DNA of 64,000 nucleotides from Emiliania huxleyi CCMP1516. Lineage: Eukaryota. The stretch covers positions 124,001 to 188,000 of the forward strand of contig NW_005201912.1 of assembly GCF_000372725.1 (NCBI RefSeq), in the 5' to 3' direction. The position numbers were made by a program, and so were the translations under genes. How positions within the stretch are numbered: position 1 is the stretch's first letter; every line of letters begins with the position of its first letter. Positions 8,490-51,791 of this stretch are shown here, one piece after another. The notes beneath the pieces were generated by a model. It was not told the DNA's origin. It ran no database searches and saw only the letters and a list, made by a program, of their open reading frames with translations.

Positions 8490-9145
8490 TTGTACAACAA
8501 TGAGAGCGAGCGCGCAACAGTCCAACACATGTGCATGCACATGATACATGATGTGCATGTGCATATGTCCACGTCCACGCCCATGTCCAGTCCAGTCCTG
8601 ACCTATCCTATCCTACTCGGCCTCCAGCAAGACCCACACGGCTCGGAACGACCCCCACGGCTAAGAACCTGAGGCTCGGCCCAGGACGGAGCACCAACTT
8701 AGCTAAGAACCTGAGGCTGGGCTAAGAACCCGTGCGTTCTTAATGCCCGTCCGGAACTGTATGGAGGTACGCTCGGCGGCCCAAAGGGGTGGGGGTAGTA
8801 TGGTCCTGACCGCCCAAGACTAGCCCTCCCATACCCCCAAGCAGGTCTGCCAGCAGGCGGGGGGGTATGGTCTTGAGCAGTTGAGCTGGGTTGGCCGACG
8901 TACCATACCATACACACCCCGATCCTGGGGAACTAGCCGGGGCAGTCGGAGAAGGGGCAACTCCGTGCACTGACGGTCGGCCGCCAGAAAACACGCCTGC
9001 GTGGATCGCGTCACACCAATCCTCGCTACCCAACGCGGCCAAAGGATAGGTAGGTAGGTAAAAAGGATATCCACCTCGCACGAGAACCATACCCCGCAAA
9101 AAGTTGGAACCCACAGCGATTTGGCTTCGTCGAGCGTGTCCACCG

Positions 9146-9513
9146 ATGAGCGCCTCCACCGATGATCCCTTCGACGTCTTCGAAGGTCCGGCGAGCGATC
9201 CTTTCGACGTCCTTGGGGTTCCAGCAGCTCCAGCAGCGCTGTCTTCCGGCGAGTTGCCGACCCGCCCAAAGCGGCCGCGGCCGTCGCCGGTCTTGCCTCT
9301 TGTGCAGCGCTTCGTCTCGCAGCATGCGCGCACGACGTGCGCCGACCTCGAGGCGGCCGGCGACTCGTCGCTGGCGTTGCTGCTCTCCGAGGCTGCCGGC
9401 CACCTCTCTGCCGATCCGCCTGCGACGGAGCGCTGCCGTGAGGTGGCGGAGCGGGCGTCGGCTTCCGCGTGGGTCGCTCTGAGTGAGGAGAGCGGCAGCA
9501 GCGGCGGCGGCAG

Positions 9514-9545
<32 letters not shown>

Positions 9546-11523
9546 CGCAGCGGGCGGCCTTGTCGCGGGAGGCGTATGTCATCGCGCAGGTTCTTCTCTG
9601 CGCGAGCCGGCACGCCGCGGGCGACGCCTCCGCCGCGCTGCGCAGCCTCGACCGCGCCTTCATCGTCGGCGGCGAGACGCAGCTCCATCGCGACTGCGTT
9701 GAGCTCCTCGAGGAAGAGGCGACGCCGCAGCGCGCAGAGCCCAAGCCGCCGCTGCCCTCACGAGGGCTACACTCGGTGGAAGCGGCGGCGGCGGCGGCGG
9801 CGGCGGCGGCTGCGGCGGCGGCGGCGGTTGGCTCCTCCGGGCCGCCAGCGCCTCCGTCCTGCTCACGGCTCGAGAGGGTGCCGCCTCCTCGAGGCGACGC
9901 CTTCCGCGCGCTGCGGCGGCGCGGGCTGCCGCTGCTCATCGACGGCGTCGCCTCGGAGTGGGCTGCGATGCGCCGGTGCCGACTGAGTCGATGCACAGAG
10001 AGCAGACGCCTCGGGGTAGAGGGGTGGGCAGCGGGGGGCGGGGGCCTCCTCGCCTTGCGGCGCACAGTGAAAGGTGCTGGTTCAGTGGCCGGCCGTCGGA
10101 GTGTCCCCTCGGCCCCCGTCTCTTCTCGCCTCTTCTCGTCTCTTCTCGTCTCGCCTCGTCTCGTCTCGCCTCACCTCGCCTTGTCTCATCTCGTCTCATC
10201 TCGTCTTCTCTGCCGCCCCTGGCCCCACTGCGCCGCCGTGAGCCCAGGTGGGCCGACTTTTCGTGGCTGCGCGACGAGTTTGGGGGCCGGCTGGTGCCTG
10301 TCGAGCTTGGCTCGCTCGCCGGGGGCGGAGCGGCCGGCGGGGGAGGGGCGGCGGCGTGGGGCGAGCGGGTGTTGAGCGTGCGCGACTTCTCAGCGCTGTG
10401 ACCGATGCCCCTCCACACCACCAGCTGCGAATAGGTCATGAGCTTGCGCGATTTTCTCGACGCGCACGTGGCGCGCTCGCCGCCGCCACCCCTCGCCGCC
10501 GCCACCCTTCGCCACCACCCGTACAACCACAACTGCCCTCCACCACCCGCGCCACTGACTCCCTCACCGCCACCGCCACCCCACCACCACCACCACCACC
10601 ACCACCACGGCCGCCCTCTCCGCCTCCACCCTCGCCACGGCCGCCACCATCACCGACCCGCGCCTCCGGGATAGACGGCGGGCGGCGGCGAGGCGCGGAC
10701 TGGCTACCTTGCGCAGCACCCGCTCTTTGAGCAGATCCCGCGGCTGCGGCGTGACTTTCGCGTGCCGGAGCTCTGCACGGCGGGCGGCGGCTCCGTCCGG
10801 CGCGCACACGCGAGGAGGGCTGCCACACAGGAGCTTGCCGTGACCCTTCTCTGACCCCCGCCGGGAGCTGTCGCAGGCACACCAACGCGTGGCTCGGGCC
10901 GGAGGGGACGGTGACGCCGCTCCACTTCGACTCGTACGACAACGTGCTCACCCAGGCTCTCCGCGCCAGCGCGCAAGCCCACCGCTTCGGACGCCCCCCC
11001 CCCTCCCCCAAACACACACACACACACCACCACCCCTGCCTCGCCGATCCGACCTCCCCCCGCATGACGTTTCTTGGAACCTTCCCGCCGCAGGTGGTCG
11101 GCTACAAGCGGGTCGTCCTCTTCCCCGCCGAGCAGACAAAGTGGCTCTACCCAAAGGAGGCGGGCGGCGGCGGCGTCGACGCGCAGGGCAACGTGAGCGC
11201 CGTCGACGTCGAGGCGCCCGCCACACCCGCCACACGCAACCACGCCAGCAGTCGCCCCCGCCGCGTGTGCATCGTGTGGGCCCTTGGGTGGGCCTTGCGC
11301 AACCCGCGGGGGCTCTTGCCCGATGCGGCGGAGAGGCCGCTTCGCGGGGGAGAGCCCCGACTCTTGCCTCTAGGCGCCCGACCTCGAGCGGTTCCCCGAC
11401 TATGCGCGCGCCGCGGGCCTCGAGGCCGTCCTCGGGCCGGGGGACGGGCTGTACATCCCGGCGGGCTGCTGGCACCACGTGAGGAGCCTCACCGCGGCCT
11501 TCTCGGTGAGCTTTTGGTTCTGA
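9146..11523 (+). CDS. JMJD5: JmjC-domain 2-oxoglutarate oxygenase, JMJD5/KDM8-like (multi-exon)
   Basis: Motifs GYLAQHPLFEQIPRLRRDF, NAWLGPEGTVTPLHFDSYDNVLTQ|VVGYKRV and VLGPGDGLYIPAGCWHHVRSL...FSVSFWF*. The HxD...H iron triad is intact. Confidence 0.9.
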
Positions 11524-11680
11524 GTCTTGATAACGTCAAGACAAAGAGCCGCAGTCCGATTTCTTTTGCTTGTACTTTTAGAGTTTTTCCGGCTGTGCCT
11601 GTCGGTGGGGGTCCTTGCTCGCGCGGCTTCTCTCGCCTCTCGGCTGAACTCCGAACTCCGTGTCCGCCGGCCGGGGGGGC

Positions 11681-11764
11681 AAGAAAGAAAGAAAGAAAAC
11701 AGACAACTCAAGGGAGGGATGGGAGGACGGCACGCCGCCACCACACAGGGATTTTAAGGAGAGG
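11681..11764 (-). mobile_element. Family M retroposon 3' end with (TTTC)n tail, copy 1
   Basis: Near-identical to copies at 12589, 23783, 26097 and 50193. Confidence 0.85.
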
Positions 11765-11949
11765 GTTTCGCAGTCTCTCAGCAACCAACCAAAAATGCTT
11801 CGAACGCCAGGTGTAATTCTTTTTTTTTGTTTGGGGCGGACAGCATGACGGGGTAGGTAGGGTAGGTCTGGGCCCTCCCGTCGGGTTTTTCCCTCTCTTC
11901 GCGCCGGAATCTTCACAGCAGAAAAAGAATTTTTTCCGCCGAAATCACG

Positions 11950-12418: not shown

Positions 12419-12588
12419 GGGCTAACAAGCTGCCGAGCCCAAATCACTGTGAGAGTCGTTCGTGATTTCTTGGTGATCTGTCACTCTAGTTGGTAGAGTA
12501 CTCAACCTTCACCGCATCCGGATTTCTTTTTGTTTCCCTTAACTAGGGTATTTGTTTGTATCATGCTGTCCGCCCCACAAGCACAAAA

Positions 12589-12758
12589 GAAAGAAAGAAA
12601 GAAAACAGACAACCCAAGGGAGGGATGGGAGGACGGCACGCCGCCACCACACAGGGATTTTAAGGAGAGGTGTGTGGTGCGCTATCCGTCGCCCACCCTA
12701 GGGAGTCTGCCTCTTCCTATCTCTCTTCGCAGTCTCTCGCTGATTCTCGCTGCAATCT
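12589..12758 (-). mobile_element. Family M 5'-truncated non-LTR retroposon, copy 2, with 12-bp TSD
   Basis: TSD ACAAGCACAAAA at 12577-12588 and 12759-12770. The minus strand carries an ORF end [23 protein letters not shown], then a 3'UTR and (TTTC)n. Confidence 0.85.
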
Positions 12759-12892
12759 ACAAGCACAAAAAGAATACACCTGCGAACGCCAACTATTTTT
12801 TCCACGCGCGAAAGTTCCTGGTGGGCTGGACCTGTGCTTCTCTCCTCGCTGCCAGCAGCTGTCCCTCGAGTAGCCTCGGGCTATACCAGACA

Positions 12893-15236
12893 ATGCTCTC
12901 CCTGCTCTCCCTGGCGCTCGGGCTCAGCCTCCTCACGACCAGCCGTCCGCCGGCACCGCGGGCCGCGGCGCGCCTCGCCGCCTCTTCTGCGCCGTCGTTC
13001 AGCCTGCCCTCGCCGATCGAGACGCTGAAGCGGCTCAGCTCCGCAGAGGCCCGCGAGCTGCAGCGGGAGCTGCTGGAGCTCGCCTTCGAGCAGGACCCGC
13101 AGGTCGTCGTCCGGCGCTCGCTCGACCTTGCGCGTGCGGTCCGCGTCGTCGGCTCCGAGACGGTGCAGGGCCTTTCCTCGGCCGCAGCTGCGCCAGAGCC
13201 GCCCGTGATCCTGCGGCGGATGTGCGAGGAGCTTGGTGCGACGTACGTCAAGCTCGGGCAGTTCATTGCGTCGTCGCCGACGCTCTTCCCGCCCGAGTAC
13301 GTGCAGGAGTTCCAAAAATGCCTCGACGCGACGCCGCCGATGCCGTGGTGCAGAGCAGAGCATACACACATGCAGAGGCGGAGGTCGGGTCTCTTCTAGG
13401 AAGGTTCGTCGGAGCCCTCCGCATAGGTCCGACGTCAAGGAGATCGTCGAGGCGGAGCTCGGCCGTCCCATCGGCCAGGTCTACGCGTCGGTCGACGAGA
13501 CGCCTCTGGCTGCCGCGTCGATAGCGCAGGTGCACCCCGCTGGCCACGGCCCGGAGCGCGGCACAGTGCCCTATCACACCGCTCATCCGACTGGCCGGGG
13601 CTAGCGGTCGAAGACCCGTGCGTGGCAAGGCGGGGATCCCGAGCACATTCCGTCGCCCCTCTCTTCTTCCTCGTCTTCAGGTGCACGCGGCCAGGCTGCT
13701 CAGCGGGGAGGACGTCGTTCTCAAGGTGCAGAAGAAGGGCGTGCAAGGGTCGCTCAAGGCGGACCTCGACCTGCTCTATGCGAACGCGCGCGTGCTGCAG
13801 CTCCTCGGCGCAGCGACCGCACTAGCGGTTCGGAGGAACGCCCCTCGCCTGCCCTCCAGGAACACCTCTCGGAGCCGCCCTGCAGGCGTCGTGACCGCCG
13901 AGCTCTCGGACGTGGTCGCGACCCTTCGCTCGGCGATCCTCGAGGAGAGACTAGACCTGCGCTCGCGGCAGCAGCGAGACGCGACGAGCACGGAAGGACC
14001 CGCCTCACGTGTGGATGAATAGGAGATCGACTTCGTGCTCGAGGCGCAGCGCACGCAGCTAGCTCGCCGAACTCCTCCCTCGTCTCTGAACCGTCTAGGA
14101 CCCTCCCGCAGGCGCAGCGGACGGAGCAGTTCGCCGAGTTCCTCGCTCGCTCGCCGGAGCTGGACGGCGTCGTCACCGTGCCCAAGGTGTACCGCGCCGC
14201 CTCCGCCTCGCGGCTGCTCACGCTCGAGCGCCTCTACGGAGTGCCGCTCATCGACCTCGAGTCGGTGCGCGAGTCTTTGGCCGGAGGTGGCGAGACACCG
14301 AGCCAGAGTGGCGGGTGCTGAACGCAACAGGTGCGCAAGTACCAGCCGCAGCCTGAGCTGGCGCTCATCGTCGCGCTAAACACGTGGGTGAGCAGCGTGC
14401 TGACCAACGAGTGGTTCCACGCAGACGTGCATGCCGGCAACCTGCTCGTCCTCACCGACGGCCGAGAGTAGCGGAGACTCGCCCCTAGCCGAGCATTGAG
14501 CCGACTCTTGGACGAGACCACTCCTTCTCGCCCTCCTTCTCGTCCCTCGAGCCGCGTCGGATTCACCGGCGGACTATGTGAAGCCTGTGTGTGTGGACCC
14601 TTCTCGGAGCTTCCCTGCAGGCCGGGTCGCCTTCATCGACTTTGGGATCGTCGGCGCCATCCCCGCCGCCACCGCGGAGGGGATGCTCGACTTCGTGCGC
14701 TCCTTCCCGGCGGGCGACATGGCTGGCGTCGGCCGCGCGCTCGAGAAGATGGGCTTCACCAAGGAGCTCTCGGAAGAGCAGTCCGCCGCCTTCGCAAAGG
14801 ACATCGGCGAGGTCATCGCCTCGATTGACAGCATGACCGCCGACATCGCGACCACCGCGAGCGCGGGCGCCGCCGCGAGCGCCATCGACGAGACGCAGCT
14901 GAACCGCGCGGTCGCTGCCGTCGCGCGCGTCGCCGAGGGGTGCCGGATCCTAGCTGCTTTGGCGATGCACTGCATTCTTGCAGCCTTTGGTCTGCGCCCC
15001 TCAGTCCACCGCGGTCTGCCCTCAGGTACGGGATCCGCTTCCCGCGCGAGTTTGCGCTCCTCATCAAGCAGGTCCTGTACTTCGACCGGTACACGTCTCT
15101 GCTCGCGCCCGGCCTCGACGTGCTCAACGACGAGCGGCTCTCGATGAACCGGCCGCCGGGCGACGGCGGCGTCTCTAGTGTCGAGGGCGGTAGTGTTGCC
15201 GTTGAGGTGCTGCCGCCGGAGGACGATGCGGAGTGA
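12893..15236 (+). CDS. ABC1/UbiB-family atypical kinase (ABC1K), likely plastid-targeted, multi-exon
   Basis: Signal-like N-terminus [14 protein letters not shown]. Motifs [43 protein letters not shown] and [10 protein letters not shown]. Confidence 0.92.
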
Positions 15237-15351: not shown

Positions 15352-15484
<133 letters not shown>

Positions 15485-15636: not shown

Positions 15637-17484
15637 TCACCTTCGCGCGCGCTTTGTCAGCGGCAGATTGTCAGACTCGTCGCTACTCGAGTCGGCCTTC
15701 GAGTCGCCCGAAGCGGGAGCAAGAGCGGGACCGGTCGCTCTCGTGCCAGATGCTGTTGGGTGCGACGCCGCGGCGGCTGGCGCATCCGCCCCAAGCTGCT
15801 CCAAACGAGACCGCGATACGCCGTGAGTCCTCCACTGCTGCTTCTGCGCGTCGAACTCGTCCGTCCAAGATTCGCATTCGAGGCTGCCCGTGAGCAACTT
15901 CTTTTGCTCATCGCTCAGGTCGGCCCAAGGAACCAGGGTCACAGATTTCGGGGCGGCGGTAGGCTTCGGGACGCCGCCGCCACCAAAGCTGCGCAGGTAG
16001 GCGAACTCCGAGCACTTGCAGATGATGTTGGTGGTGGCTGCTGCATTAGGGCTGACGTATTCGGAGCCCCCTCCACTCCGCCGCGTCTTGCCGCTGATGA
16101 ACAAGTTGAAGTCGAGGTCCTCCATGGCATGCATCTGTCGCTTAAAGTTAAAGGACTCGAGCAAGTCGAGATTAATGATGAGCACCTTCATGACATGCTT
16201 GCGAAGAAAGGGCGAGCGGCGCTGCAGACTTGCCGGCGAGTCCCGCGTTGCTCCCTGCCAAGAGTGGAAGCCGAACATCGCAATGTCGCGCATGCCAGGC
16301 TGTGGGTCGTCGCCGAGTAGACCGAGGCCCGTCTCGAAATACCGCAGCACCGTGGACAGAGAAGCGCTCACCGAGGTACCGCCTCTGAGGTTAAAGCGTT
16401 TCCACCCAGCAACGTTGTCATCATGCATCACATAGAAGCGATGCCGCGTCCCCGAGCAAACCGCAGCGGCAAATCGGTGCGCAGAGTACCTCGAGTGGCC
16501 GACCGAGGAGAAGTAGTCGCCACCTGCCTCCGAGCTACTGGCCGCCGAGCGAGGTGCTCGCAGACGAAGCTGCTCGTCAAAGTCAACCTCAGGATGCAAG
16601 AAGAAGGAGATGTCGGCGAAGTCTGGGTGGGTTAGGTACTGGTCAAACGTCGCTTGGCCGATCACCGACGCCGGGTAGATGCAGACGACCTGCACGTACG
16701 AGCGGCCGACAAACTGCTTGTCGAGGCAGAGCTGAGCAGCTCTGCCCGCCTTGTAGCTCAGCATGAATATCGGCAGCTGGCAGAAATCATCGTCCGGAAT
16801 CTGAAGCCGCACCATGCCGTCAAGATGCTTCCAGCATGCGGCCTGAGCAGCCGAGATGTAGAGCCAGCCTGACTCGCCAGACTGGAAGCTGATTTGCACG
16901 GGCGCGGGCCGCTCAAGCGCGGGCGGACCCTTGCCTTTGCGCCCGTCGAGGTATGGGACAAGGCTCATGCGAGCGGTGGCAGGTTGCTGCGTGGCCTGCG
17001 CTGCGCCTGCAGACTGTTTGCCCGGATTTTCTTTGATGCCGCGATTGCCCTCACTTGGGACTTTAAGCGCCGGATCCAGCTCGTCCCCTCGCCCACCGTT
17101 CTGGTAGTGCTCCCACACTGCGTCGCACGCCGGGTCGCCGTAGTCGCCGTTGGCTGGGCTGGCCTTGTCGTGCTGGAAGTGAACTTTCTTGAGGGCGTCG
17201 ACGTCCGGATAGCCTCCACTGGTAGACGCTGCGCCGTCGCAGCCTTCATCGGAGTCATCGTTGTCGTCGTCCGAGAGCAGGATGTCCACGTCCCTTTGCC
17301 TCGCGCGTGCACCTAAGGCGGCGATGCAGTGGACGAGCGCCGCTGTCTTGCCGATCTGAGGCTCGCCAAAGAGAAGGAAGCGCCGCTTGTGCCAGCGCGG
17401 CTTCTGTCCCTCAGGGTCGTCGTTTTTCTTTTTTACTAGCCCTCGAGGTTGATCGAGGTCGTGAGAGGCCCGTGATTTGTTCAT
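15637..17484 (-). CDS. GREB1-like / TET-associated glycosyltransferase (TAGT, JGT-like) preceded by a Walker A motif; intronless, probably 5'-truncated
   Basis: Walker A FLLFGEPQIGKT (GEPQIGKT at 17367-17344). GT-A motifs LPIFMLSYKAGR (16776-16741), SVGHSR, FYVMHDDNV (16437-16411), VLIINL and MEDLDFN (from 16125), ending in GGGG. 615 codons from ATG 17484. Confidence 0.75.
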   Translation of the reverse strand: MNKSRASHDLDQPRGLVKKKNDDPEGQKPRWHKRRFLLFGEPQIGKTAALVHCIAALGARARQRDVDILLSDDDNDDSDEGCDGAASTSGGYPDVDALKKVHFQHDKASPANGDYGDPACDAVWEHYQNGGRGDELDPALKVPSEGNRGIKENPGKQSAGAAQATQQPATARMSLVPYLDGRKGKGPPALERPAPVQISFQSGESGWLYISAAQAACWKHLDGMVRLQIPDDDFCQLPIFMLSYKAGRAAQLCLDKQFVGRSYVQVVCIYPASVIGQATFDQYLTHPDFADISFFLHPEVDFDEQLRLRAPRSAASSSEAGGDYFSSVGHSRYSAHRFAAAVCSGTRHRFYVMHDDNVAGWKRFNLRGGTSVSASLSTVLRYFETGLGLLGDDPQPGMRDIAMFGFHSWQGATRDSPASLQRRSPFLRKHVMKVLIINLDLLESFNFKRQMHAMEDLDFNLFISGKTRRSGGGSEYVSPNAAATTNIICKCSEFAYLRSFGGGGVPKPTAAPKSVTLVPWADLSDEQKKLLTGSLECESWTDEFDAQKQQWRTHGVSRSRLEQLGADAPAAAASHPTASGTRATGPALAPASGDSKADSSSDESDNLPLTKRARR

Positions 17485-17503
17485 ATGCAAAGAACAAAAT
17501 GCG

Positions 17504-18612
17504 TCACGGCGGTCTGCCCTGCTGCTGATAGTACGCGGCCCACGCCGCCTGGTGCTGGTGGTACGCTGCCCACGCCGCCTGCTGCCGGTAGTACTCGGCC
17601 CACGCCTCCTGCCCGTGCGCCTGCGCTGCGCCCGCCGCGCCCGCCGCGCCCCCGCCCGCCTCGCCCGCGGGTGGCGGGCTGTGCTGCGGTCGCAGCACCT
17701 CGCCGCGCGTGAAGCAGCCGTGCCGGGCGCGGAACTCCTCGGCAGAGGACGGCACCGCATCCCGCCGCCACTCTGGCTCCGCGCCGGCGACGCGCGCAGC
17801 CTTGCCGCCCTCTGCCGTGCCGCCCTCTGCCGTGCCGCCCTCTCCCTGCGCAGCAGCACCGGCGACCGGCTCGACGGGCGGCGCCGCAGTCGCCTCCGCC
17901 TCCCGCCGCCTCTTCGCCGCCGCCGCCGCCACGCCGTCCGCGCCTCCCGCCGCGCTGTTTGCCGCGCCGCCCCCCGCACCATCTGCGCCGCCGCCGCCTC
18001 TGCTACCGCCTCCGCCGCCGCCTCCGCCGCCCCCTCCGCCTCCTCCGCCGCCTCCTCCGCCCCCTCCGCCGCCCCCTCCACCGAGGGTGAGGGTGTACAC
18101 TCGCTTGCCACGCTGCAGCACCCTACCGAGCGGCCGTCCGCGCAGCCTCTCCCCGTCCACCGCCAGGATGACCTCGCCCATTGCCCGCGCGGCGTGGGTC
18201 GTGGACGCGTCGTGGACGCGTCGCGGACGCCTCCGGCGCCGCCCGCCGCACCGACGCGCACCACGCCCTCCCGCTCCGCCTGCCCGCCCGCCGCCAGGCC
18301 GACGACACGGTTCTCTTCGTCGAGCAGCAGGCCGAGGCCGCCTGAGGAGTAGCGCATCCAGCTCCGTGTGAAGGCGTCGCTCGCCGACTCGCCTTGCCGA
18401 GGCGCGGGCCGAGGCCGCCGCTGCCGCTGCCCACGCAGACGCGCCGCGAGCCCGCCTCCTCCGCACCCTCCTCCGCCGCGCCGACGGCGTCGCACTGCGC
18501 CGGCCGCGGCTGGGGAGGTCGAGGAGGCGGGCGGGCGGCGGCGTGTCTGGCGAGGGGGCGGCGGTGGAGGCGGGGCGAGGCGGTGCGAGCGGCGGCGCTG
18601 CCGGGTGGACAT
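17504..18612 (-). CDS. PDZ-like domain protein with Gly/Ala/Gln-rich tail (spliced)
   Basis: GGLGLLLDEENRVVGLAAGGQAEREGVVRVG|EVILAVDGERL matches the PDZ pattern. Stop at 17504; the start is approximate. Confidence 0.6.
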
Positions 18613-18821
18613 CGCGAGCTCAGATGCGCACGAGCCGGATTTTTTTCCCGCATGCAGTGTTGCTAATATTTTTCCTTGTGCCAGGGCTGCGGGGCTCGAG
18701 CCCGAAGGACGGGCAGCTGCACTCGGCGCCGCCAACCATCATCGGTGGGCGGCACTGACTGGGCCCCGGACGACGGACGATGGGGCGATACATACATGAC
18801 AAGTCCCGCTCGCTCGCGGCG

Positions 18822-19932
18822 TTAGCGCAAGTACCCCAGCCCGGCCAGCCGGCGGAGCTGTTCGTAGAGCGGCAGCGTCATCAAAAAGATGGGCGCCAGC
18901 TTGGCGTACTGCGGGCCGAGCCCGCGCCAGAGCGACAGCACCCCCTCCCTCCTCACGAGCTGGGAGGCGCAGTCGCCGACGCTGCTGTAGTGCGCGCCGA
19001 CGGCGGGCGCGCCCTGGTACCTGTTGAGGACGATGTCCGGCGGCAGGGAGAGCACGGCGGCGCAGCCGGCGGCGAGGAGGGAGCAGAGCACGTGTGTGCC
19101 GGCGCCCTCGGCGAGTCCGTTGGCGCGGACGGCGCGCTGGGTAGGGGCGGAGGAGGAGTGAGGGTGGCGGGGAGGCGGCGAAGGCCGAGGCGAGGGCGGC
19201 CACGCCTTCGCTGCGTCGTAGCCTCCAAGCTGGCCCGCGGAGAGGGCGCCGCCACTGGAGGGGGTGGCAGGGAATACGGTCACGCGCGCGAATCCGGCGG
19301 GCGGCGGACGAGGCATGTGTGTATGGCCCCCATGGACAGCACTCACCGGACGAAGAGCGCGGACACGCCGCGGTAGTGGCCCGCCCATCCGGCGGAGCGG
19401 CTGACCAACGCCAGCGACGCGGCGAGGGAGGAGGAGGAGGAAGGGGCGGACTGCTGGAGCGCCTTGACGTTGAAGAAGGGGCAGGCGAGGCTGTTTGTGA
19501 GAGCACCCGTCGAGAGGCCCGCCGCAAAGGCGGTCGCCGGCGTAGAGACGCCTGAGGCGCCCTCGATGGCGTCGCGAAGTGGCTCGTACAGCACCATGCG
19601 GCAGCTATTTCAAGGGACGATTTGAGTGGTGAGACGGGGATGCGGTGGTCGGTGCGAGCGGTCGGCCTGAAGGCGACGCCCATCGACGCCATCCAAGCAG
19701 AGACGCCGGGCTGCATCAGCCCGCGCACCAAGCCTTCATCCCGGGCGAGGCGGAGAGCAAAGTCATAGACGGACGGCGGCCGTGTCGCAGCCGATTCAAG
19801 CTGAAAGCGAACTCGGATCACCTCCACAGGGTTGGTCGCGGCGGCGGCAATGGCAGCCGTGGTGCCGGCACACGCGAGGCGGCGAAGCGCGACGAATTGC
19901 GGCTGCTGATTGTCGGACTGGACACTCAGCAT
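18822..19932 (-). CDS. Mitochondrial carrier (SLC25) family protein, multi-exon
   Basis: Three Px[DE]xx[KR]xR-like repeats: NPVEVIRVRFQ, CPFFNVK and LPPDIVLNRYQ. Also EGVLSLWRGLGP. Confidence 0.9.
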
Positions 19933-20047
19933 CAGATCAGATCGGAGCCGATGTGATCGGGCGGGAGAGGCAGCTGACCACCCCCGGCCGTCAAGAGGGG
20001 TACAAGAAAAAGAAGAATTAGACAACCCAACTCTCTCTGAGTTGTGC

Positions 20048-20905
20048 ACTGGGGGGTTGTATCAGAGGGGGGGGGTCTGAGGCAAGGGGGCCCAGATCTG
20101 CTCGTCTCAGAGGGTACCCTCTGTGCCAAGAGAGGCCATCCACGAGCGGCTCAGAGGGTGCCTGGGCCGACCCTCTGAAGGCCTGTGCCGCCAAGCCAGC
20201 CTCTCTCGGCGCAGCCTCTGAGGCTACGGGGACCCTCTGAGACGCCAAGGCAAGCCCCGCGAGGCCGCTCCTCAGAGGGGTGGCATTTCAAGTCTCTCTC
20301 AACCACAGAAAAAGAATTTGTGCGCGGGAGTTGACGGAACTGTAGAATCTGTCTCTTCTCTACTCTGCGCGAGGCGCCCCAGCTGTGGCGAGGCACCCAA
20401 GATGCGCATCAGAGTCCGGGTCAACGGTGTGGAGGGCGGTGCCACGCTTTCGATCGGCGCCGAGGCGGGCGTCAAAACGGAGTCAGAGCTCGTTGCGGCG
20501 GCCGCGACCAAGCTGCTTGGCGTGGATCCGACGCAGTCGATCGACGTCAGCAAAGCAAAGCTGTTCCTTTCCGGAGGCGCTGTGAAAAGTCGTAATGTTT
20601 TACTACCCCGCCCCTCCCCGCCCTCACTGGTCAGCGCCGTTCGTGGAGGGCTAGGCAGCTCCGCCTCCGCCCGGGGCTCTCGCCTCTGCCGTGAGGGGGG
20701 GCCACCCCCCACCCTCTGAGGTCAAAGCCCTCTGTGCCGCGCCAAGACGGACCATCAGCCAGGGACCCTCTGAGGCCAAAAGCAGCCAAGAGAGGCCATA
20801 GAGGCGGCACAGAGTCAGAGTCAAACCCTCTGTGCCGCCAAGGCAGGGGTCCGACCCGTCCTCAGAGGGGGGTCTGAGGCCTCAGAGAGTGTACAGCCCC
20901 CCAGT
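20048..20905. mobile_element. Non-autonomous TIR DNA transposon (Pack-type) with 8-bp TSD
   Basis: TIRs ACTGGGGGGTTGTA (20048-20061) and TACAGCCCCCCAGT (20892-20905). TSD AGTTGTGC at 20040-20047 and 20906-20913. Many subterminal CCCTCTG(A/T)G motifs in both arms. Confidence 0.85.
20402..20590 (+). pseudogene. Captured 5' gene fragment, KHA/ubiquitin-like (KCTD9 N-terminal-like) domain
   Basis: MRIRVRVNGVEGGATLSIGAEAGVKTESELVAAAATKLLGVD...AKLFLSGGAV, truncated by the element's right arm. Confidence 0.5.
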
Positions 20906-20906
20906 A

Positions 20907-21157
20907 GTTGTGCCCTTGTTTGTGCCCTTGGCACCGTGGAGTGCTGGGGGGGGCGACAGGGAGGATGTGGCCCTGAGTTATGTGTACGCCGACTCAGGGT
21001 GTGTGGCAGCCAGCTGGCTGTGTGTCTTGTGAGCCTGTTTGTGTCTGTGTGTCGCTCGTGCGTGTCGTCATCATCTGTCCAGCGTCCACCCATACCGCGT
21101 TGGTGTCCAGTCCGAGCCTGGCTGTTCTTCACCTTTCTACCTACCTACCTCTCTCTG
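20907..21157 (+). repeat. ~250-bp dispersed repeat ending in (CTAC)n, copy 1 (retroposon-like 3' end)
   Basis: Near-identical to 22449-22699. Confidence 0.85.
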
Positions 21158-21417: not shown

Positions 21418-21525
21418 NNNNNNNNNNNNNNNNNNNNNNNNNNNNNNNNNNNNNNNNNNNNNNNNNNNNNNNNNNNNNNNNNNNNNNNNNNNNNNNNNNN
21501 NNNNNNNNNNNNNNNNNNNNNNNNN
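21418..21525. other. Assembly gap (108 N)
   Basis: Run of N. Confidence 1.
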
Positions 21526-22448
21526 GGGCTAGTAGATTGCCGGCCTTAAGTCATAGGTGACGCGAGGGCGCTCACTTAATTGATTAATTCACTCATTAAT
21601 TCCTTAATTGCGTACCGTATTCCGGGTAATCTTAATTATTAATCATCGGGCGGGGCGCGGCGCGGCGGCTGCGCGAGGCGGCGGCGCGGCGCATCGGCGG
21701 GCGGGCGGAGCGGGGCGGCGCGACCATCTGTCCTGACCGGGGCCTCTGGTCTTTGATGCGGAACAACGGTCGCGCCGCCCTCGACTCAAGGGGCTGCCTT
21801 CCACACGTCGCTGCTCAGGCCGGGGGAGGGGGGGAGACCTCCTGTTCCTCGCGGAACGGGAGCAGCCCCCTCCTTGCCCGGTCTGCGAAGCAGGGCGGTG
21901 GTCGTGCCATCTTCGCTTCAAAACGACCACGCCGCAATCGTCGCCGGCGCGCGACACGTTCCCGGAGGCCGGACTGTCCTGGTCGAGAGTGTGTGCCGCC
22001 AAGGCGGGGCTACTCGGGGACAGTGCCGACGGGGCGCGGCTCGTGAGACGACTCCCGCGAAGGCACGGCTGGCATCCGTGGCGTGGGGCTCGCCTTCGAA
22101 AAGTCGGGCATGGCTCTCCCCGCAACTCTATCGCTAACACGCGCGCACCACCGAGACTGTGGTGGGCGCGCTGCGGTCGCACGTCTACCTCCGTCATAGT
22201 GCCACGACGTGCGGCCTAGAATTAGCACACGCGCCTCTGCTTGCATACACTCATACATTGGATTGTCATCGCCTGTGAGTGCAAGATTAGGGCTAGCCGC
22301 AGGCAGCTAGCCTCTGAGGAGGGCGTCCATAGACACCTCACTAGACCCCACACACGGTCTCGTCCGTGCCTCGCCGGCCGGAGAGATTGCTGGAGGTAGA
22401 GCACGCCTGCTCTAGCCTCGCATGTCACTTCCTGTCGTCTGTTGTGTC

Positions 22449-22699
22449 GTTGTGCCCTTGTTTGTACTCTTGGCACCGTGGAGTGCTGGGGGGGGCGACA
22501 GGGAGGATATGGCCTTGAGTTATGTGTAAGCCGACTCAGGGTGTGTGGCAGCCCGCTGGCTGTGTGTCTTGTGAGCTTGTTTGTGTCTGTGTGTCGCTCG
22601 TGCGTGTCGTCATCATCTGTCCAGCGTCCACCCATACCGCGTTGGTGTCCAGTCCGAGCCTGGCTGTTCTTCACCTTTCTACCTACCTACCTCTCTCTG
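22449..22699 (+). repeat. ~250-bp dispersed repeat, copy 2
   Basis: Near-identical to 20907-21157. Confidence 0.85.
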
Positions 22700-23858: not shown

Positions 23859-26025
23859 TCATATGGTGACTCGGCCGCTCTCGGCCACACGGCGCCAGCC
23901 TCGCCCCCACGCGCGCACGAGCGGGTACGACCAGGGAAGCAAGTTCATCTGCGCCCCCGCTATCGCGTGCCCCGGCTGCGGCCCGTGCTTCGCCTCGAGC
24001 GCCTCCAGTAGTGCCGCCTGGCCCGCGAGGCCGATCCGATTGAACGTGGCGTTCACGCGACATCCCTGACCCGCGGCCGGGAGGGAAGCCGCGAGTGCCA
24101 TCGCGCCCTCGTCGCCCACGTCGCAGCACGACAAGGCCAGCCCATGCGACGGCTCGCCCGTCGCCAGTGCCTCAGCTAACACCGCGGCTCCCTCATCGCC
24201 AATAGGCGTGATACTGACGTCGAGCATCTGCAGCGTCGGCGCCACGCCGCGATGGAACACGCCGCAGAGCGCGCCGACGCCGCGCGCGCCGAAACGGTTT
24301 GCCGTAACGTCGAGGGACTCAAGCGCCGGGAGCGCGCCGTCCTCGAGCCCCGCCGCAAGCTCCGCCACGCCCTCGTCGTCGAGGCGATTCCCAACTAGGA
24401 AGAGGGTCCGGAGGCTCTCGCAATAGTTAAGCGCCTCCGCCAGCAGCGCCGGGCTAGTCCACGCGTCGCCACGCACGAGCGGCAGACCGATGTAGTAGAG
24501 CTTCTCGACCGTGCCCAGCACGGCCTTCGCCGTCTTCTCGTAGAGCGCCAGCACGGTCGCCGAGTCCGCGCCGTTGGTGAAGCGGCAAGCGGCGAGCAGC
24601 GTCGCCATGCGCTCTGGAGTCGCGGGGAGCCGCCGCTGAGCGCCGCCGTCGCCGCTGGCGACGTCGATGACGAGCTTCCACTTGGCAAAGCCCAGCGTAG
24701 AGGGCTTTGCGCCCAGCTCTGCGGAGCAGCGCTCGAATGTCGTCCAGCCGCGAGTGTCGTAGGTCCGGCTCCGGTCAAAGCCGGCGGGCAGCTCGTCTGG
24801 CAGCTGCGTGAGCAGCACGACCGTGACCGAGGCGTGCGCGTACCAGAGGTCCTAACGCGGAATGTAAAGCCAACGTGCCGTGAGAGCGGTGCATGTTGTG
24901 GCGCTATCGGGCTGGGAAAGGGGCTGGCGTGTGCTCACCATCGTGTTCTCCAGCATGCGACCGAAGGCGGCCTTCTGCTCGCCCGACCGGCTCGCCTCAT
25001 ACGCGCGCCGCTCGGCAAATAGCGCCGGGTCCTTCTGGTAGCCCGAGCTCCAGTCCAGAAACACGCCCTGCGCGAGCCAGGAGAGGAGTGGCGGTGAGGA
25101 AGGGAGTAATGGTGGGCATGAGGCGCGGGAGGCAGCTCACCATGTCCGAGAAGCCGTACTCGCGGCACGCGCCGAGCAGGCCGCGCCCGCCGTAGAGGCC
25201 CCGCAGCTTGCGGGAGAGCAGCTGGAGCTGGCGGCCCTCTCGGTCTGGATGCGCCGCCTCAAGCCAGCAGTAGGAGACGGAGATGACGGGAAGCAGCCGG
25301 TCTGGGTTGCGCTTGCGGCCGAAAAAGCTGGCGATAAAGCCGAGAAAGGATGAGGGGGAGGGCTCCTTGCCGAAGCGCTGCAAGGCTTCCGCAAAGCCGG
25401 CGAGGTCAAAGCCGCGCCTTGCGCCTTTCTCGATCCGCCTCAGCTGAGCAGAGCTTAAGAAGGCCTCCTCTGGCAGGTCCTGCCGCCGCGGGAGCACGTC
25501 GCCCCGCTCTGCCAGCGCCATGAGCCAGTTCAGACTGATCAGCCGCACATCGCCCGGCCGGACCTTGTCGCCGTCGCCCTCGAGGGCAGCCCAGATGGAG
25601 TCGTGCCATCTGTAGCGGGCGCCGTCATTGGTGTTTGCGCGCGACCGTTCGCGAGCTTGAAGACCGGACTCGGTGTCGGGGAGCGTCGGCACGTGGTAGG
25701 GGAGCTGTGAGGCGCGTCGGCAGAGGTTGTAGACGGCGAGGATGAGGGGGTTCCGGAGGAAGAGACCCTCGATCAGATGTGTCGGGAAGAATAAGATGGC
25801 GATTGGCAGGTCGACGAAGAGCACCATCAGAATCAGATATGGAAGGCAACGCCAGGCGAGGAGGGCGGGAGGCACGCCGACAGCAGCGTCGGAGCTGCAG
25901 AGGCCGAGCGCGATGAGTGGTGAGACAACGAGATGGAATGGAAACATAATCAAAAGGAGTGCTGGCAAGAGCACGATGCCCACGAGGGTCTCAACGCACG
26001 AGCGCAGCAGGCGGGTGGCCGTCAT
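23859..26025 (-). CDS. Membrane-anchored HET-like domain + LRR (NLRC3/RanGAP-type) protein, 3 exons
   Basis: ATG at 26025 followed by hydrophobic helices. HET-type motifs ISVSYCWLEAAHPD, VFLDWSSGYQKD, DLWYAH and YDTRGWTTFER. LRRs such as LRTLFLVGNRLDDEGVAELA and LDVTANRFGARGVGAL. Confidence 0.85.
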
Positions 26026-26096
26026 ACACACAGCAAACCAAAGGCGGCCGGAGCAATGCACGAAAAAGAATTTTCCGCACCCCCTCGCACAACACT

Positions 26097-26168
26097 TTAA
26101 AATCCCTGTGTGGTGGCGGCGTGCCGTCCTCCCATCCCTCCCTTGGGTTGTCTGTTTTCTTTCTTTCT
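26097..26168 (+). mobile_element. Family M retroposon 3' end, copy 4
   Basis: Matches the other M copies; lies 71 bp upstream of the HET-LRR ATG, at the break in the upstream retroelement ORF. Confidence 0.85.
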
Positions 26169-29100
26169 GGGCATGCACAAGGCGCTTGAGGCACTCGATC
26201 GAGACGCTGTCGCAGATGGAGAGATCGTAGTCTGCGGCGGGCGTAGTGTTGAGATTGATCGTGTCGGCCACCCCCGAGGGGGAGTTCCAAGCGAGCGAGA
26301 CGCCGGTGGCGTTGCGGAGGGCGGCAACAGCAGCAGCAGAGGATGCAGCGGCGCCCGGGACGGCGGGCGCCCACGCGAGCCGCCGGGTGCGAGTGGCAGC
26401 CGAGACGCCACGGTTGTCAGCGTGGGTCAGGTTGGCGCCCGGTGTGCCCGGCGCCGCGTGCTGCAGTGCCTTGGCGATGGCGTCGGTGCACTCGGCCTTC
26501 GGCGTGATCTTCTCCTTGTGGGCTTTGTGCAGCGGGTCGTTGCGAGACGAGAGGTGGTTGAAGAACATGCTCGTCCCGTTGCCACCCGAGCCATCCGGAA
26601 GTTTGTTGGGGATGAGGCAGCAAATCTGGGCGCAGCACTCGCACTTGGTGAGCCCACTGGAGGCGAGGTCCACGGGCGTGTAGTTGTGCGTCTTGAAGTG
26701 CGTGCAGAGCGACTTGGCTGTCTTGAAGTCTCGGGCGCAGATGGAGCAAGAGAAGGTTTGGCGAGGTGGGTTGGTGTTGGAGCTGCTGGCGGCTTGCGAT
26801 CCCTCCGCCTGCTCCGCCACGTTCCCCTCCTCGCTCTCTCCTCCGACGTCCTCGTCGGACGATTCTTCGTCGCCGTCGTGGCCACTGTAAGGCGGCGGGG
26901 GCTTGCTTCCACCTCGGCGCTTGAGGCGCTGGGAGATGGGCCCCTCGTCGATGTCGAAGTCGCCCTCCGAGGTGGACTCACCCGTCGTGGTGTCGACATG
27001 CTCTGGAGGCGCAGGAAGGGCGTCTAGGAAGGCCGCACCGGCGTCTGCCGGATCGGCGTCGGCGCCGTCGTCCGCCGGGGCGATGGCGGGTCCGTGGTCG
27101 TCGCCCGTGCCCTGCTCGCCGTCGTCGGACGCCTGTCCTTGCGGTGGCGGCGGTGGCGATGGCGGCGGCGAGATCGGGCCACCTGGATCCGGTCTGGACT
27201 CGGGCGGCGGCGGCGGTGGTGGCGAGTCTGCGGCGTTGAGCTCTAGTACTTCGCGCTCGGCGTCGGCGAGGCGTTGTCCGGCGGCGAGGGCTTCGTCGTC
27301 GGTCGTCGCCTCGTCGAGGGCAGACGATGCGTTGTGCTTCTTAGCGAGGGCTTCCTCCTCCGCCGCCTTGTCGAGGGCAGTCGATGCGGCGCGCTTCTTG
27401 TCACGCTTCTTGGCGGTGGCGTCGGCGTGGGACAAAGGGTCCGACGTGTCGTCGTGGTGTGTCTTCAGCACCTTGGACGAGCCCTTGGGATCGCCCGCAC
27501 CTCCGAAGGTCGTCCGCGCTTTGCCGCTGGGCGGGGAGGCGTCGCCCTTGGCAGCAGCGTCCGCGAGTGGTGAGCGAGGGCGGACGAGCGAGCCAGATTC
27601 TTGTGTCGGCGCCGGGCGGACGACGCCGAAGTAAGTCGGGGCGAAGAGGTTGGCCGGGAACGCGTCGCCGCCGGGGGGTGGCGGTGGGGAAGGCGGCGCT
27701 GGCGGCGGCGGCGAGGGAGGAGGAGGGGGCGGCGAGGGGGGCGGTGGTGGCGGCGGTGGCGGTGGCGACGACGGTGGCACCGGCGGCGGCGACGGCGGGG
27801 CCGATGCTGTCTGGCAGTCGAGAGGCGGTTCGAACCGGCGCTTGCGCCTCGGCGGCCGGTCGATGGGGGAGGATGTCGATGGATCGAGCTCTTCGATGCT
27901 GGCGCCGTCGCCGGGCGAGGTCGAGGGCGATGCAGCCGACGATGACGCAGTGGCACCGTTGCCGGTTGCCGTCGAGGACGACGCAGCAGATGACGACGCA
28001 GCGGCGCCGTTGCCGTTGCCTGGCTGGGCGTAGGTGGTGACCGTGCCGGGGCTCAGGACGACGGGTTGGAGAAGGACGCCGGGATGGGCTGGCGTTGCCT
28101 CCCCTTCAAACGGGTACCAGAAGTCGAGTAGGATCTGGGTCGAGGTCGGGATTGGGTAGTGCACGTTGATGTGGGCGAGCGCCTCTTGGATGTCGCGGTA
28201 CTTCTTGTGGCGCGCCCTCGAGCCCCCGACGGCGCCGTGCGCTGCGCAGAGGTCCCACGTGGAAAAGACGCCCCAACCAGACCCTGGAACGTAGAGCGCG
28301 TAGTACCAAGGCTTGGGCGCGGCGGAGACGCTGTGTAAAATGAACAGGGAAGCGAAAATGCCGTTTTTGGTGTAAGCCGCCATGAGGCCGGCGAGTAAGA
28401 GATCTCCCGGGAGCTTTGCCATCACCAGTCCCAGCGGGTCGGAGAGGTCACAGAGGCCGCCCGCCGACGAGGCGTCGCGCGAGAAGAGACTGGTGATGGT
28501 CTCGTTTGCGGGCGTGCCGCCAACGAAGATGTCCATGTCGGAGTTGTTGGGGACGGGCGACGCCAGAACGGCGCCTCCTCGTCCTGGTGCTCGACTGCCT
28601 TCGGTACCGGTCGGCCCGGGTCCCGGCAGGAGCGAGTCGTCGGACGGGTAGAAGATGCGCTCGGAGTCGACGGACTTGTACAATTTGTGGCTCCGAGAGG
28701 GCCGCCCCTCGCACAGCCCAACCAGGCCCCCGCCCAGCGGGGTAGTTTCCTGGCTACTGGTCGGGCTGTGGTTGGTGCGGTTGGCTCCGGCTCTGCCAGT
28801 CGTCGAGGGCAATGTGAAAGACGGTTGTGCCGCCCCCGCCCCCTCATCCGAGGGGACCCCACCGGCGTTGTGGACACTGTGAGGGACAGGCTGCCTTGTG
28901 GCTGCCTTTGGTCCGACACAGAGCCATTCTGCACGGTGCCAGGTGGGTGGGACGGTCGAGGTAGTCGGCGCCGGACCTGTGCAGCGGGTAGAAAACACGC
29001 TAGACACGCTAGGCACACTAGACTCGTCACGCGACACAGACACAAAAGACAGGACACGAGACGAGGTAGCCTTGGCAGCAGCCGTGGCAGCAGCCGTGGC

Positions 29101-29595
29101 GGCAGCCGTGGCGGAAGCCGTGGCGGAAGCCGTGGCGACAGCCGTGGCGACAGCCGTGGCGGAAGCCGTGGCGGAAGCCGTGGCGGGAGCCGTGGCGGGA
29201 GCCGTGGCGGAAGCCGTGGCGGAAGCCGTGGCGGAAGCCGTGGCGGAAGCCGTGGCGGAAGCCGTGGCGGAAGCCGTGGCGGAAGCCGTGGCGGAAGCCG
29301 TGGCGGAAGCCGAGGCGGCAGCCGAGGCTGGCTCGGGAGCCGCGTCGGCAGCCGTCGGGTGCTCGACGATAGCTTGGACCGGCTCGACCGCGCTGCAGAT
29401 GTTTGAAGCGGGTCGAGCTGGCAGCTCTTGGAGCGTCGAGCCGAGGAGTGGGTGTCGGACAGCGCCGACGTGGGACTCCGCTGTCGCGGCGTCCACGGGG
29501 CGCAGAGCACGCGTGCTCTGCGCGAGTGCGAGCGCAGGATCGCTCAGGATCAGCAGCACGGCGGCCGCGAGCCGAAGAGGCCCGACAGCCGACAT
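26169..29595 (-). mobile_element. Truncated retroelement-like ORF: RNase H1 N-terminal (Cauli_VI) domain, Pro-rich region, C2H2 zinc finger; no RT
   Basis: WYYALYVPGSGWGVFSTWDLC...RHKKYRDIQEALAHI (Cauli_VI pattern), CSICARDFKTAKSLCTHFKTH and CECCAQIC. 3.4 kb with no intron. Resembles the N-termini of CRE/R2-like non-LTR ORFs. Confidence 0.6.
29072..29325. repeat. 12-bp coding minisatellite (GCCGTGGCGGAA) encoding (ASAT)n
   Basis: Direct observation. Confidence 0.95.
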
Positions 29596-31264
29596 GCCAG
29601 CTGAAGTAAGGAGTCCCTATCATTGAAAGAAGCAGACGGGTCGGACCACACGCTCTCCGAATGGGATTTTCTGCCCTACCGCCTGTCGCGGCCCCGCCTG
29701 CCTCCCGGGGCCCGCCCGGCCGTGCCATCCGCCGCCGGACCGCCCGGCGGGTCCAACCCGAAGCGGGCGACCGGCCGTTCGCACCGCTCGGCCGGCGGGG
29801 CGAGCCCCGCGGCCCTCGATCGCTCGCCCCGGGACGTGGCCCGACCGGCCCACGCGCACGTCCTGGCCTCTACCGCCGCTTTCGGCGGCGCAATTTGCGC
29901 CTTCATCGCTCTCTGGATCCTCCTGGCACCCATCGGACTCTTCCCGACGGTCGGAGGCACCCACTCCGTGCACTTTGAGTCAGACTCGCTCTTCGGCAGG
30001 CACGCTCTTCGGCAAAAAGTCGCCGCCGGCCGTTCACGCCGAGCCAGCCAGTTGCCGGCTCGCACGGCAGCCTCTTCCTCTCGACCAGCCTCAACTTCGA
30101 CACGGTCATCATTTTGTCGCTGCGTGCTCGTGGCGAGCCGGGCGGCGGTCAAAGTTTGCCCAGACGAGCGCCAGGCGATAGCAAGGTCTCTGTTCGCCCT
30201 GTGCATGTCAGGCCAGGCTGCAGCGGGGCACTACCATCGTGCTACGCTGTTGCAGCCTGACCTTTCCCACTGTGCACAGCCGCCAGAGCACCACCACCGC
30301 CCGGCATCGTGTCACGGCGAGCTCCTTCTGCACCCGTTCGCGAGGCTCTCGCGCTGGCACACTTCGGCCTTCCGCTGCTCGCGTTCGGCGAGCTCTTCTC
30401 CGCACTCCTGCCACGGTGCCGTCGCCACACACCTTCTGGCCGGCCTGAGCCATGCGGACTCGACCTCTCTCCCTCTCTGGAGCACGCCACGGGCCGCGAC
30501 GGCTGCTGGCAGCCGGCCGGCGTGAGGAGGCAGTTTGCCGGCACAGTCGAGCTGGAGTATCCGCTTCTTGATGCTTCTGCGGTCAAGCTCGACCTTATGT
30601 GACATGATATGCCACAATAATGCATGCTCTCACCCCTCAAAGTGTCGAAGTTTACCGGTGACTCTCCGGTGGCCCGATAGTACCGTGTGCCTTTCTTCAA
30701 ACGAACGCGCTTCGAGGTTCGACAATCGCTAAGCTGCTTATGGGGCACCGCTGCGACTCCCTTGGGGATGCCTGAGGCCACCCCAAGCACTCCCTAAGCC
30801 TTACGTGGACGATTTCAACCCTACTCTGTGTTTGTTCGTCCACGCACATTAGCAACTTTGTGCTCATGTCAACGCCACGCCAGCGCTAGCCCATTCAACC
30901 CCGCCCCATTGGGGGCGGAAGCGGCGGATCCCTGGAGGACCGCGAGCATGGTGAGAAGTTCCGGATGCGCTTTTGCGGCGCCAACCGGCGGCGCAAGGGG
31001 GGGGGCGTCTGGCGCTTGATCCAGTCTACAGATGCACGGGACGGATCGCTTATTCAGTTCATTTGCGGGAATGAGTTCTTCGAAGAGCTACGTAAAGCGC
31101 GGGACGGATTGAGATGCGTCTCTATTTGAACCCCTGGGAGAGAGAGAGAGGGGGACCCATTTTTACTTTTTATGTGGCGTAAACTTGCAGGAGGCGCCGT
31201 GATGGAAGAAACACAATAACAGGCAAATTCTTTTCTTTTTCTAGATTGCAATCAGAAACGAAAC

Positions 31265-51673: not shown

Positions 51674-51791
51674 AACACCGAGGAGCCTCTCGAGTCTGCT
51701 GCTCGGTTCCTGCTCCTCGGCTCCCTGCTGCTCGGTGTACGAACTCTGTTCACACCGAGTAGCTGGGAGTGGCTGCGGCTATAGCAGACAG

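What the first reader, a model, noticed from the sequence alone, without database searches (positions are those of the whole stretch)
15637..17484. GREB1/base-J-type glycosyltransferase with a lone Walker A motif: candidate DNA base-glycosylation system in an alga
Seen: an intronless 615-codon ORF, less GC-rich than its intron-rich neighbours. GEPQIGKT is followed about 200 aa later by PIFMLSYKAGR / VGHSR / VMHDDNV / MEDLDF. Established: this motif series typifies the TET/JBP-associated glycosyltransferase (TAGT) family, which includes the kinetoplastid base-J glucosyltransferase. GREB1 proteins join this domain to a circularly permuted SF2 helicase whose Walker A lies last, just before the GT. 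Inference: this is the 3' part of a GREB1-like helicase-GT gene that may sugar-modify oxidised pyrimidines (5hmU/5hmC) in DNA, possibly carried on mobile or viral DNA. The ATG is only ~20 bp from the PDZ gene stop, so this copy may be truncated. No TET/JBP partner is visible in the window.
Basis: partly seen in the sequence, partly recalled or inferred. Interest (0 to 1): 0.85.

Follow-up and report, generated by a model that had tools for sequence, protein, structure and literature searches.

The report
Broken GREB1-like glycosyltransferase gene in alga
This is the back end of a known kind of gene (GREB1-like: a helicase-type motor joined to a sugar-transferring enzyme) whose front part, present in close relatives, is missing here, likely through a recent deletion, so this copy is probably inactive and the DNA-sugaring role of its intact relatives remains an untested prediction.

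Summary
The ORF is real (minus strand, 615 aa) and the family call holds: Pfam TAGT above cut-off, the last 50 positions of cpSF2-GREB1, and a GT-A model whose best viral matches include phage TAGTs. It is not a whole gene. Two metagenome contigs hold the longer form: ankyrin repeats, two introns, helicase motifs Ia, II, III, V, VI, then Walker A and the transferase. One starts just behind the same upstream flank as the window, and near-identical copies in runs X1 and X5 read on in frame into the helicase exactly where the window diverges. About 3.7 kb are missing. The ATG lies in the neighbour's 3' flank, so the 'lone Walker A' is a deletion scar. The host is probably a coccolithophore (Emiliania-like, from a named relative). 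GREB1-like proteins in Haptophyta are in print (PMC7968844), and this scan met the family before on other DNA. No TET/JBP, viral or mobile link was found. DNA versus protein target of the intact gene stays open. Ordinary; low interest.

The parts
15637..17484 (-). 615-codon ORF: a 24-codon stub from non-coding flank fused in frame to the 3' part of a GREB1-like gene
17421..17503 (-). 3' flank of the upstream gene; holds the ORF's ATG (17484). In L002 the same ATG opens 17 codons and meets TGA
   Evidence: L002 194-334 = window 17558-17421 at 95%
17413..17420 (-). Junction where about 3.7 kb (upstream region, start codon, N-terminal domain, ankyrin repeats, two introns, helicase motifs Ia-VI) are missing; a few filler bases, including a 3-nt repeat of the flank end
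   Evidence: size estimated from L002 (3720 nt) and from L001 plus L002 (about 3.7 kb)
17344..17367 (-). Walker A (GEPQIGKT), last motif of the circularly permuted SF2 helicase, orphaned here
   Evidence: Pfam PF20692 positions 663-713; PQ.GKT in 111 of 113 relatives
16780..17343 (-). End of the helicase module and acidic, variable linker
   Evidence: dN/dS 1.15 against L001, 0.44 against L002
15982..16779 (-). Complete TAGT (GT-A fold) domain with GxxR (16503-16489), DDN (16431-16411) and ED..N (16125-16108) motifs
15637..15981 (-). Low-complexity tail and stop; 48 nt shorter in frame at 15734-15742 than the copies in X1, X5 and X9; X2 matches the window there
   Evidence: tables 5 and 8
17504..18619 (-). 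Upstream GC-rich gene (PDZ-like by recalled motif, no Pfam hit), stop at 17504-17506; a neighbour, not part of the GREB1-like gene
12497..15236 (+). Convergent downstream neighbour: intron-rich ABC1 kinase gene, followed by a CA microsatellite at 15361-15476

Best explanation
The ORF is the 3' part of a GREB1-like helicase-glycosyltransferase gene joined directly to the flank of its upstream neighbour, likely by a recent deletion of about 3.7 kb, and it is probably a non-functional remnant. Shown: what is missing and where the join lies. Inferred: the deletion took the promoter and start codon, the ATG now in frame is accidental, and a lone P-loop without motifs II-VI cannot make an ATPase. 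The intact gene, seen in related contigs, encodes a protein of roughly 1,770 aa (estimate): unknown N-terminal domain, ankyrin repeats, a permuted SF2 ATPase with all motifs kept, and a GT-A transferase. Its likely working (inferred, untested): the ATPase binds and moves on or opens nucleic acid and presents a hydroxyl acceptor to the transferase, which moves a sugar from a metal-bound nucleotide-sugar. My odds for the acceptor: hydroxymethyl-pyrimidine in DNA about 0.45, protein Ser/Thr as reported for human GREB1 about 0.35, other (such as RNA) about 0.2.
For: tblastn of 5 longer relatives finds no helicase body anywhere in the 64 kb; homology starts at 17415-17400. L001 encodes DECH, SAT, KGRLGDT, QELGR, then the same Walker A and transferase (88% identity over 543 aa). 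L002 carries the same upstream flank and runs from it into an ATG at L002 424, ankyrin repeats and the helicase. Loose ends at exactly 17412 in X1 (contig with 1 difference in 281 nt) and X5 translate into the helicase-side residues of P0006; X5's loose end before 17420 matches L002 behind position 334. An X9 contig of 5336 nt is collinear to 17412 and goes on for 3503 nt (letters not shown). In L002 the window's ATG is closed by TGA after 17 codons; 62 of 249 simulated cut points and frames in the flank would leave an ATG open, so the open frame needs no selection. 110 of 111 relatives with Walker A have motif VI before it (biased, since the query held that region). Filler bases at the join look like repair rather than an assembly seam (inference). 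Large gene-breaking and hemizygous deletions are reported in some Emiliania strains (PMC4438323, passages).
Against: The join rests on the window's assembly alone; I have no independent sequence across it. The pre-deletion form is pieced together from two different copies (L002 for the flank, L001/X1/X5 for the gene side), and L002 is probably a paralog with two frameshifts of its own. The transferase domain is whole with all invariant residues, and an internal Met at residue 173 could start a transferase-only protein, so activity is not excluded. No RNA of the window's own strain was examined. The acceptor of the intact gene was not tested at all.
Confidence: 0.8

Rival explanations
1. The join is an assembly error; the organism has the whole gene here.
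For: Every related copy that I could follow past the join goes on into the helicase: X1, X5, X9 and L001. The region has look-alike copies that can mislead assembly.
Against: The join is clean, without N, with filler bases. Another private feature of the window, the 48-nt shorter tail, is matched letter for letter by an X2 contig (439 nt, 0 differences). Flank and gene are in their native order and strand, as a deletion gives.
Confidence: 0.1
2. The deletion made a working, helicase-free glycosyltransferase, like phage TAGTs, read from the flank ATG or from Met173 on a read-through or cryptic transcript.
For: Whole GT-A domain, model pLDDT 78.6, pTM 0.81; G, R, D, D invariant in 44 of 44 rows and present here; stand-alone viral TAGTs of 208-333 aa are the nearest Atlas clusters; the frame is open end to end.
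Against: No upstream region of its own; the ATG sits 19 nt behind another gene's stop. X1's near-identical copy is not truncated, so the deletion is too recent for an open frame to show selection. Low dN/dS in the transferase (0.31 and 0.22) was probably earned while the gene was whole.
Confidence: 0.07
3. The fragment came in on viral or mobile DNA.
For: Lower GC3 than most neighbours; closest folds are phage TAGTs; the family makes segmental copies (L002 carries the tip of the neighbour gene into other DNA).
Against: No match in viral contigs (exact peptide patterns only), 50,697 phages or 72,556 plasmids. The longer gene has GT-AG and GC-AG introns at the same places in both copies and the same GC3 of 0.72. 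It groups with a Prymnesium protein (SH-aLRT 100, quick tree, long-branch warning). No terminal repeats around the ORF; no transposase or viral Pfam among the frames scanned.
Confidence: 0.03

Closest known systems
GREB1-like proteins of protists and invertebrates (Pfam PF20692 cpSF2-GREB1 + PF20691 TAGT); reported in Haptophyta, Heterokonta, Cryptomonada and others (PMC7968844, passage)
   Same: Motif order II, V, VI, then Walker A (93 of 94 relatives with all of II, VI and A), followed by TAGT with the same invariant residues.
   Different: The window copy lacks everything before Walker A. The longer coccolithophore-type form has ankyrin repeats at the N-terminus; the one coral relative I mapped has them at the C-terminus (P0129), and the Chrysotila-cluster protein P0125 has a weak ARM-like N-terminus instead.
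Human GREB1 / GREB1L
   Same: Permuted SF2 module fused to a C-terminal TAGT (PMC7968844, PMC6163654; passages).
   Different: The human helicase module is described as catalytically inactive and the reported activity is O-GlcNAcylation of ER-alpha; the intact algal form keeps DECH, QELGR and GKT. Algae lack ER-alpha (PMC7968844).
Kinetoplastid base-J glucosyltransferase JGT
   Same: Same TAGT family per the legend of Fig. S3A of PMC7968844 (figure itself not seen).
   Different: JGT works after a JBP1/JBP2 thymidine hydroxylase (PMC7055916, passages). No such partner was seen in the window, the genome could not be searched, and I did not align JGT itself.
Phage TAGT DNA glycosyltransferases in TET clusters
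   Same: Best fold matches among viral models (E 4e-8 to 1e-6, TM about 0.5, 10-15% identity); 29 of 30 Atlas hits are TAGT clusters.
   Different: Stand-alone proteins in clusters with TET and C5-methyltransferase (PMC8256090, passages); none of that context here, and no sequence-level match to phages.

Membership tests
TAGT (PF20691) | Profile score above the curated cut-off | tested here: met
   32.1 bits against 27.5
TAGT (PF20691) | GT-A fold | tested here: met
   Model from 44 rows, pLDDT 78.6; the 4 PDB matches at E<=0.001 are all glycosyltransferases (GnT-I, B3GalT5, MGAT2, LH3/ColGalT1), TM 0.35-0.47; their GT-A class is recalled
TAGT (PF20691) | Conserved GxxR, DD(N) and ED..N residues | tested here: met
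   their catalytic roles are inferred from GT-A enzymes (recalled)
GREB1-like (window copy) | Complete permuted SF2 module before the transferase | tested here: not met
   Only Walker A; no motif II, III, V or VI in the ORF or in the window. Filed as a remnant, not as a working member
GREB1-like (longer form, L001/P0006) | Complete permuted SF2 module, Walker A last, fused to TAGT | tested here: met
   PF20692 140 bits and PF20691 29 bits in one frame; exon with motif Ia joins in frame
Base-J-type system (JBP + JGT) | TET/JBP hydroxylase partner in the genome | tested here: inconclusive
   None in 180 of 564 window frames scanned; no whole genome is held
Base-J-type system (JBP + JGT) | Glycosylated pyrimidine in genomic DNA; sugar transfer to 5hmU/5hmC | not testable with these tools
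   Needs LC-MS and enzyme assay
GREB1-type protein O-GlcNAc transferase | Sugar transfer to protein Ser/Thr | not testable with these tools
   Reported for human GREB1 only (PMC7968844)
Endogenous viral or mobile element | Viral/element hallmark genes, ends, or close viral homologs | tested here: not met

The most novel reading that the evidence does not exclude
The intact coccolithophore-type gene, present in several fast-diverging, recombining copies, is an ATP-driven DNA glycosyltransferase that puts a base-J-like sugar on oxidised pyrimidines of its own or of invading viral DNA, which would be a glycosylated DNA base in a haptophyte alga; the window copy is a natural loss-of-helicase allele that could serve as a comparison strain.
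Probability: 0.2. Interest if true: 0.75.

Novelty: new member of a known kind. Interest (0 to 1): 0.2.

Why it matters
For this copy, little: it corrects a database gene model (the exact 615-aa sequence is already in NCBI, UniRef and EukProt) that looks like a novel 'Walker A plus transferase' protein but is a deletion remnant. The open question belongs to the family: whether non-animal GREB1-like proteins, which keep their ATPase motifs, glycosylate DNA or protein. A culturable alga with natural intact and broken copies would be a handy place to ask, and a glycosylated base outside Euglenozoa and phages would be a real find, but nothing here shows it.

Tried and rejected
No whole genome is held, so paralogs and TET/JBP genes could not be searched genome-wide. 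The 1033-aa stop-to-stop frame (to 18738) is not a longer version of the gene: no helicase match upstream. Splicing from upstream exons was rejected for the same reason. Sequence search of solved structures gave nothing (best E 0.86 and 0.59). The single-sequence fold was useless (pLDDT 35). Viral contigs, phages, plasmids: no match. Read cover of the join: no listed contig of 5 runs laid (of 14 listed) bridges 17412-17421, and X1 and X2 show no depth over about 17430-17570; contigs are filtered and the tables were cut, so these holes prove nothing either way. X2's paralog contig runs 1470 nt past the join unbroken, unlike X1's, a weak hint at most. X11 (RNA library of another organism) has one 173-nt contig, 116 nt laid with 6 differences; not shown transcribed, no silent control laid. 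X9's 3503-nt continuation fits a spliced transcript (3474 nt estimated to the ATG) but its RNA status is a guess. The 'DESD' at residue 602 is low-complexity tail, not Walker B. The N-terminal domain of L002 gave only unnamed Atlas clusters at 0.90. The search of 1.84 billion representatives and the VIA-align search never ran, so distant prokaryotic relatives are not surveyed. Iyer et al. 2013 (PMC3763556), which defined TAGT, is not held; it may already name the Emiliania gene. Literature listings showed no paper on activity of a haptophyte GREB1-like protein or on glycosylated bases in haptophytes; PMC4738411 passages had nothing on an Emiliania TET/JBP. No complex prediction was sent.

Full report
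Observation. The ORF lies on the minus strand, 17484-15637, 615 codons, without introns. Pfam gives TAGT (E 1.4e-7, above cut-off) and the last 50 positions of cpSF2-GREB1 (below cut-off). GC is 0.61 against 0.66 for the window, GC3 0.73 against about 0.9 for neighbour stretches that had been picked for high GC3. The exact protein is already in NCBI, UniRef and EukProt.

Transferase domain. In an alignment of 44 sequences, G, R, D and D of the GxxR and DD motifs are invariant, and the following N and the ED..N residues nearly so; the window has them all. A model built on that alignment (pLDDT 78.6, pTM 0.81) matches glycosyltransferases in the PDB (4 matches at E<=0.001, TM 0.35-0.47) and, more strongly, viral proteins, among them several named phage TAGTs (29 matches at E<=0.001). 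The Atlas gave TAGT clusters for 29 of 30 hits. The domain is a genuine and complete TAGT.

The gene is cut. The search for longer relatives returned one, P0006 (1289 aa, 85% identity), with cluster mates P0008 and P0009 and an Emiliania huxleyi UniRef fragment, P0007. They carry DECH, SAT, KGRLGDT and QELGR before the same Walker A. None of this upstream part is found in the 64 kb; homology starts at about 17415. A metagenome scan gave 2 loci from 15 pattern matches. L001 encodes P0006 and shares the window's downstream flank to 15299. L002 begins with the tip of the window's upstream gene and its flank (L002 194-334 = window 17558-17421, 95%), then runs on into an ATG at 424, an unknown domain, ankyrin repeats, two introns and the helicase, and rejoins the window at L002 4055 = 17406. 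Both loci have a GT-AG and a GC-AG intron at the same places, and the predicted exons join in frame, adding a motif Ia-like exon. The missing piece is about 3.7 kb.

Reads place the break. Of 14 runs listed I laid 5. In X1 a contig with 1 difference in 281 nt, and one in X5, leave the window at exactly 17412 with letters that encode the helicase-side residues of P0006; X5 also leaves the flank before 17420 with letters matching L002 behind 334. An X9 contig is collinear to 17412 and goes on 3503 nt. X1, X2 and X5 also hold a second, about 90% alike, L002-type copy that goes on at 17403. The ORF's ATG lies in the neighbour's flank; in L002 it is closed by TGA after 17 codons, and a quarter of simulated cut points would leave it open (62 of 249). 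The join itself rests on the window's assembly alone, so an assembly error is not excluded. Gene-breaking and hemizygous deletions are reported in some Emiliania strains (PMC4438323, passages); I did not determine the strain.

The family. The helicase region finds 113 proteins of 708-2256 aa: named ones from corals, an annelid, a shrimp, a Prymnesium MAG, Gefionella and a Chrysotila cluster. Walker B pattern in 96, motif V in 105, motif VI in 112 and Walker A in 111 of 113; order II, VI, A in 93 of 94 with all three. About 48 of 113 carry ankyrin repeats (hand count). A quick tree of 28 of 30 rows (2 dropped for lack of the Walker A pattern) groups window, L001 and the Prymnesium protein (100) and these with the Chrysotila-cluster protein (99), with a long-branch warning. 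Nothing was found in viral contigs, phages or plasmids. Window, L001 and L002 are mosaics of each other; L001 and L002 are only 81% alike over 3.8 kb; dN/dS is 0.31 and 0.22 in the transferase core and 1.15 and 0.44 in the linker.

Mechanism. Window copy: no upstream region of its own, no native start, and a P-loop without the rest of the ATPase; probably dead (0.8). Intact gene (inference): ankyrin and N-terminal parts for targeting, a permuted SF2 ATPase with all motifs for binding and moving on nucleic acid, and a metal-dependent GT-A domain for sugar transfer. For DNA as acceptor: intact motor, likeness to phage TAGTs, kinship with JGT. Against: no TET/JBP partner seen in 180 of 564 window frames, genome not searchable, and the only GREB1 activity I found reported is on protein. 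Odds 0.45 DNA, 0.35 protein, 0.2 other.

What is known. PMC7968844 (passages, and supplement legends; the alignment in Fig. S3A is an image and was not seen) describes the GREB1 layout, reports O-GlcNAcylation of ER-alpha, and lists Haptophyta among lineages with GREB1-like proteins. PMC6163654 (passages) repeats the layout and calls DNA modification by GREB1 unknown. PMC7055916 (passages) gives the JBP-then-JGT pathway; PMC8256090 (passages) the phage TET-GT clusters. Iyer et al. 2013 was not available. Earlier notes of this scan describe the same family on other DNA; none for this sequence or genome.

Verdict. Observation confirmed, interpretation partly supported. A deletion remnant of a known, widespread, functionally open family. 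Interest 0.2; the bolder reading, a glycosylated DNA base in haptophytes made by the intact gene, has probability about 0.2 and would merit 0.75.

Noticed in passing
L002 1-334; X5 loose end at 17558: The L002-type copy carries only the last ~54 nt of the upstream gene plus its flank and is joined to other DNA, and L001's downstream flank leaves the window at 15299: the gene seems to exist as segmental copies at more than one place.
   Followed up: partly
window 15800-17403 against L001 and L002: Informative sites switch partner along the gene (window with L001, L001 with L002, window with L002), suggesting gene conversion or recombination among copies; divergence is high for one species group.
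   Followed up: partly
L002 about 2490 and 4240: Two +1 frameshifts split the L002 copy; database proteins P0005 and P0002 end and start at the same breaks. A second broken copy in the family, or shared sequencing errors.
   Followed up: partly
L002 5700-6605: The L002-type copy has a long Ser/Ala-rich and RGG-rich tail; L001 and the window keep only a non-coding remnant of it behind their stop.
   Followed up: no
L002 694-1068: N-terminal domain of about 125 aa before the ankyrin repeats, no Pfam family, only unnamed Atlas clusters at 0.90.
   Followed up: partly
window 25000-29616 (-): 1539-codon open frame without Pfam hit, with a stretch like the N-terminal domain of RNase H1 and a C2H2-like motif (both recalled), running towards the LRR gene at 23862-24851; possibly a retroelement piece.
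   Followed up: no
window 9062-11813 (+): JmjC/Cupin_8 gene with a weak KDM8-like N-terminal hit: a 2-oxoglutarate oxygenase nearby, but not of the TET/JBP family.
   Followed up: no
window 20904-21157 and 22446-22699: 254-nt direct repeat (97%) on both sides of the N gap at 21418-21525.
   Followed up: no
window 18822-19950 (-); 51675-56883 (+): Ordinary host genes: mitochondrial carrier, 5-oxoprolinase/hydantoinase, thioredoxin-PUB-PPPDE, PITH, histidine phosphatase, EF-hand.
   Followed up: no
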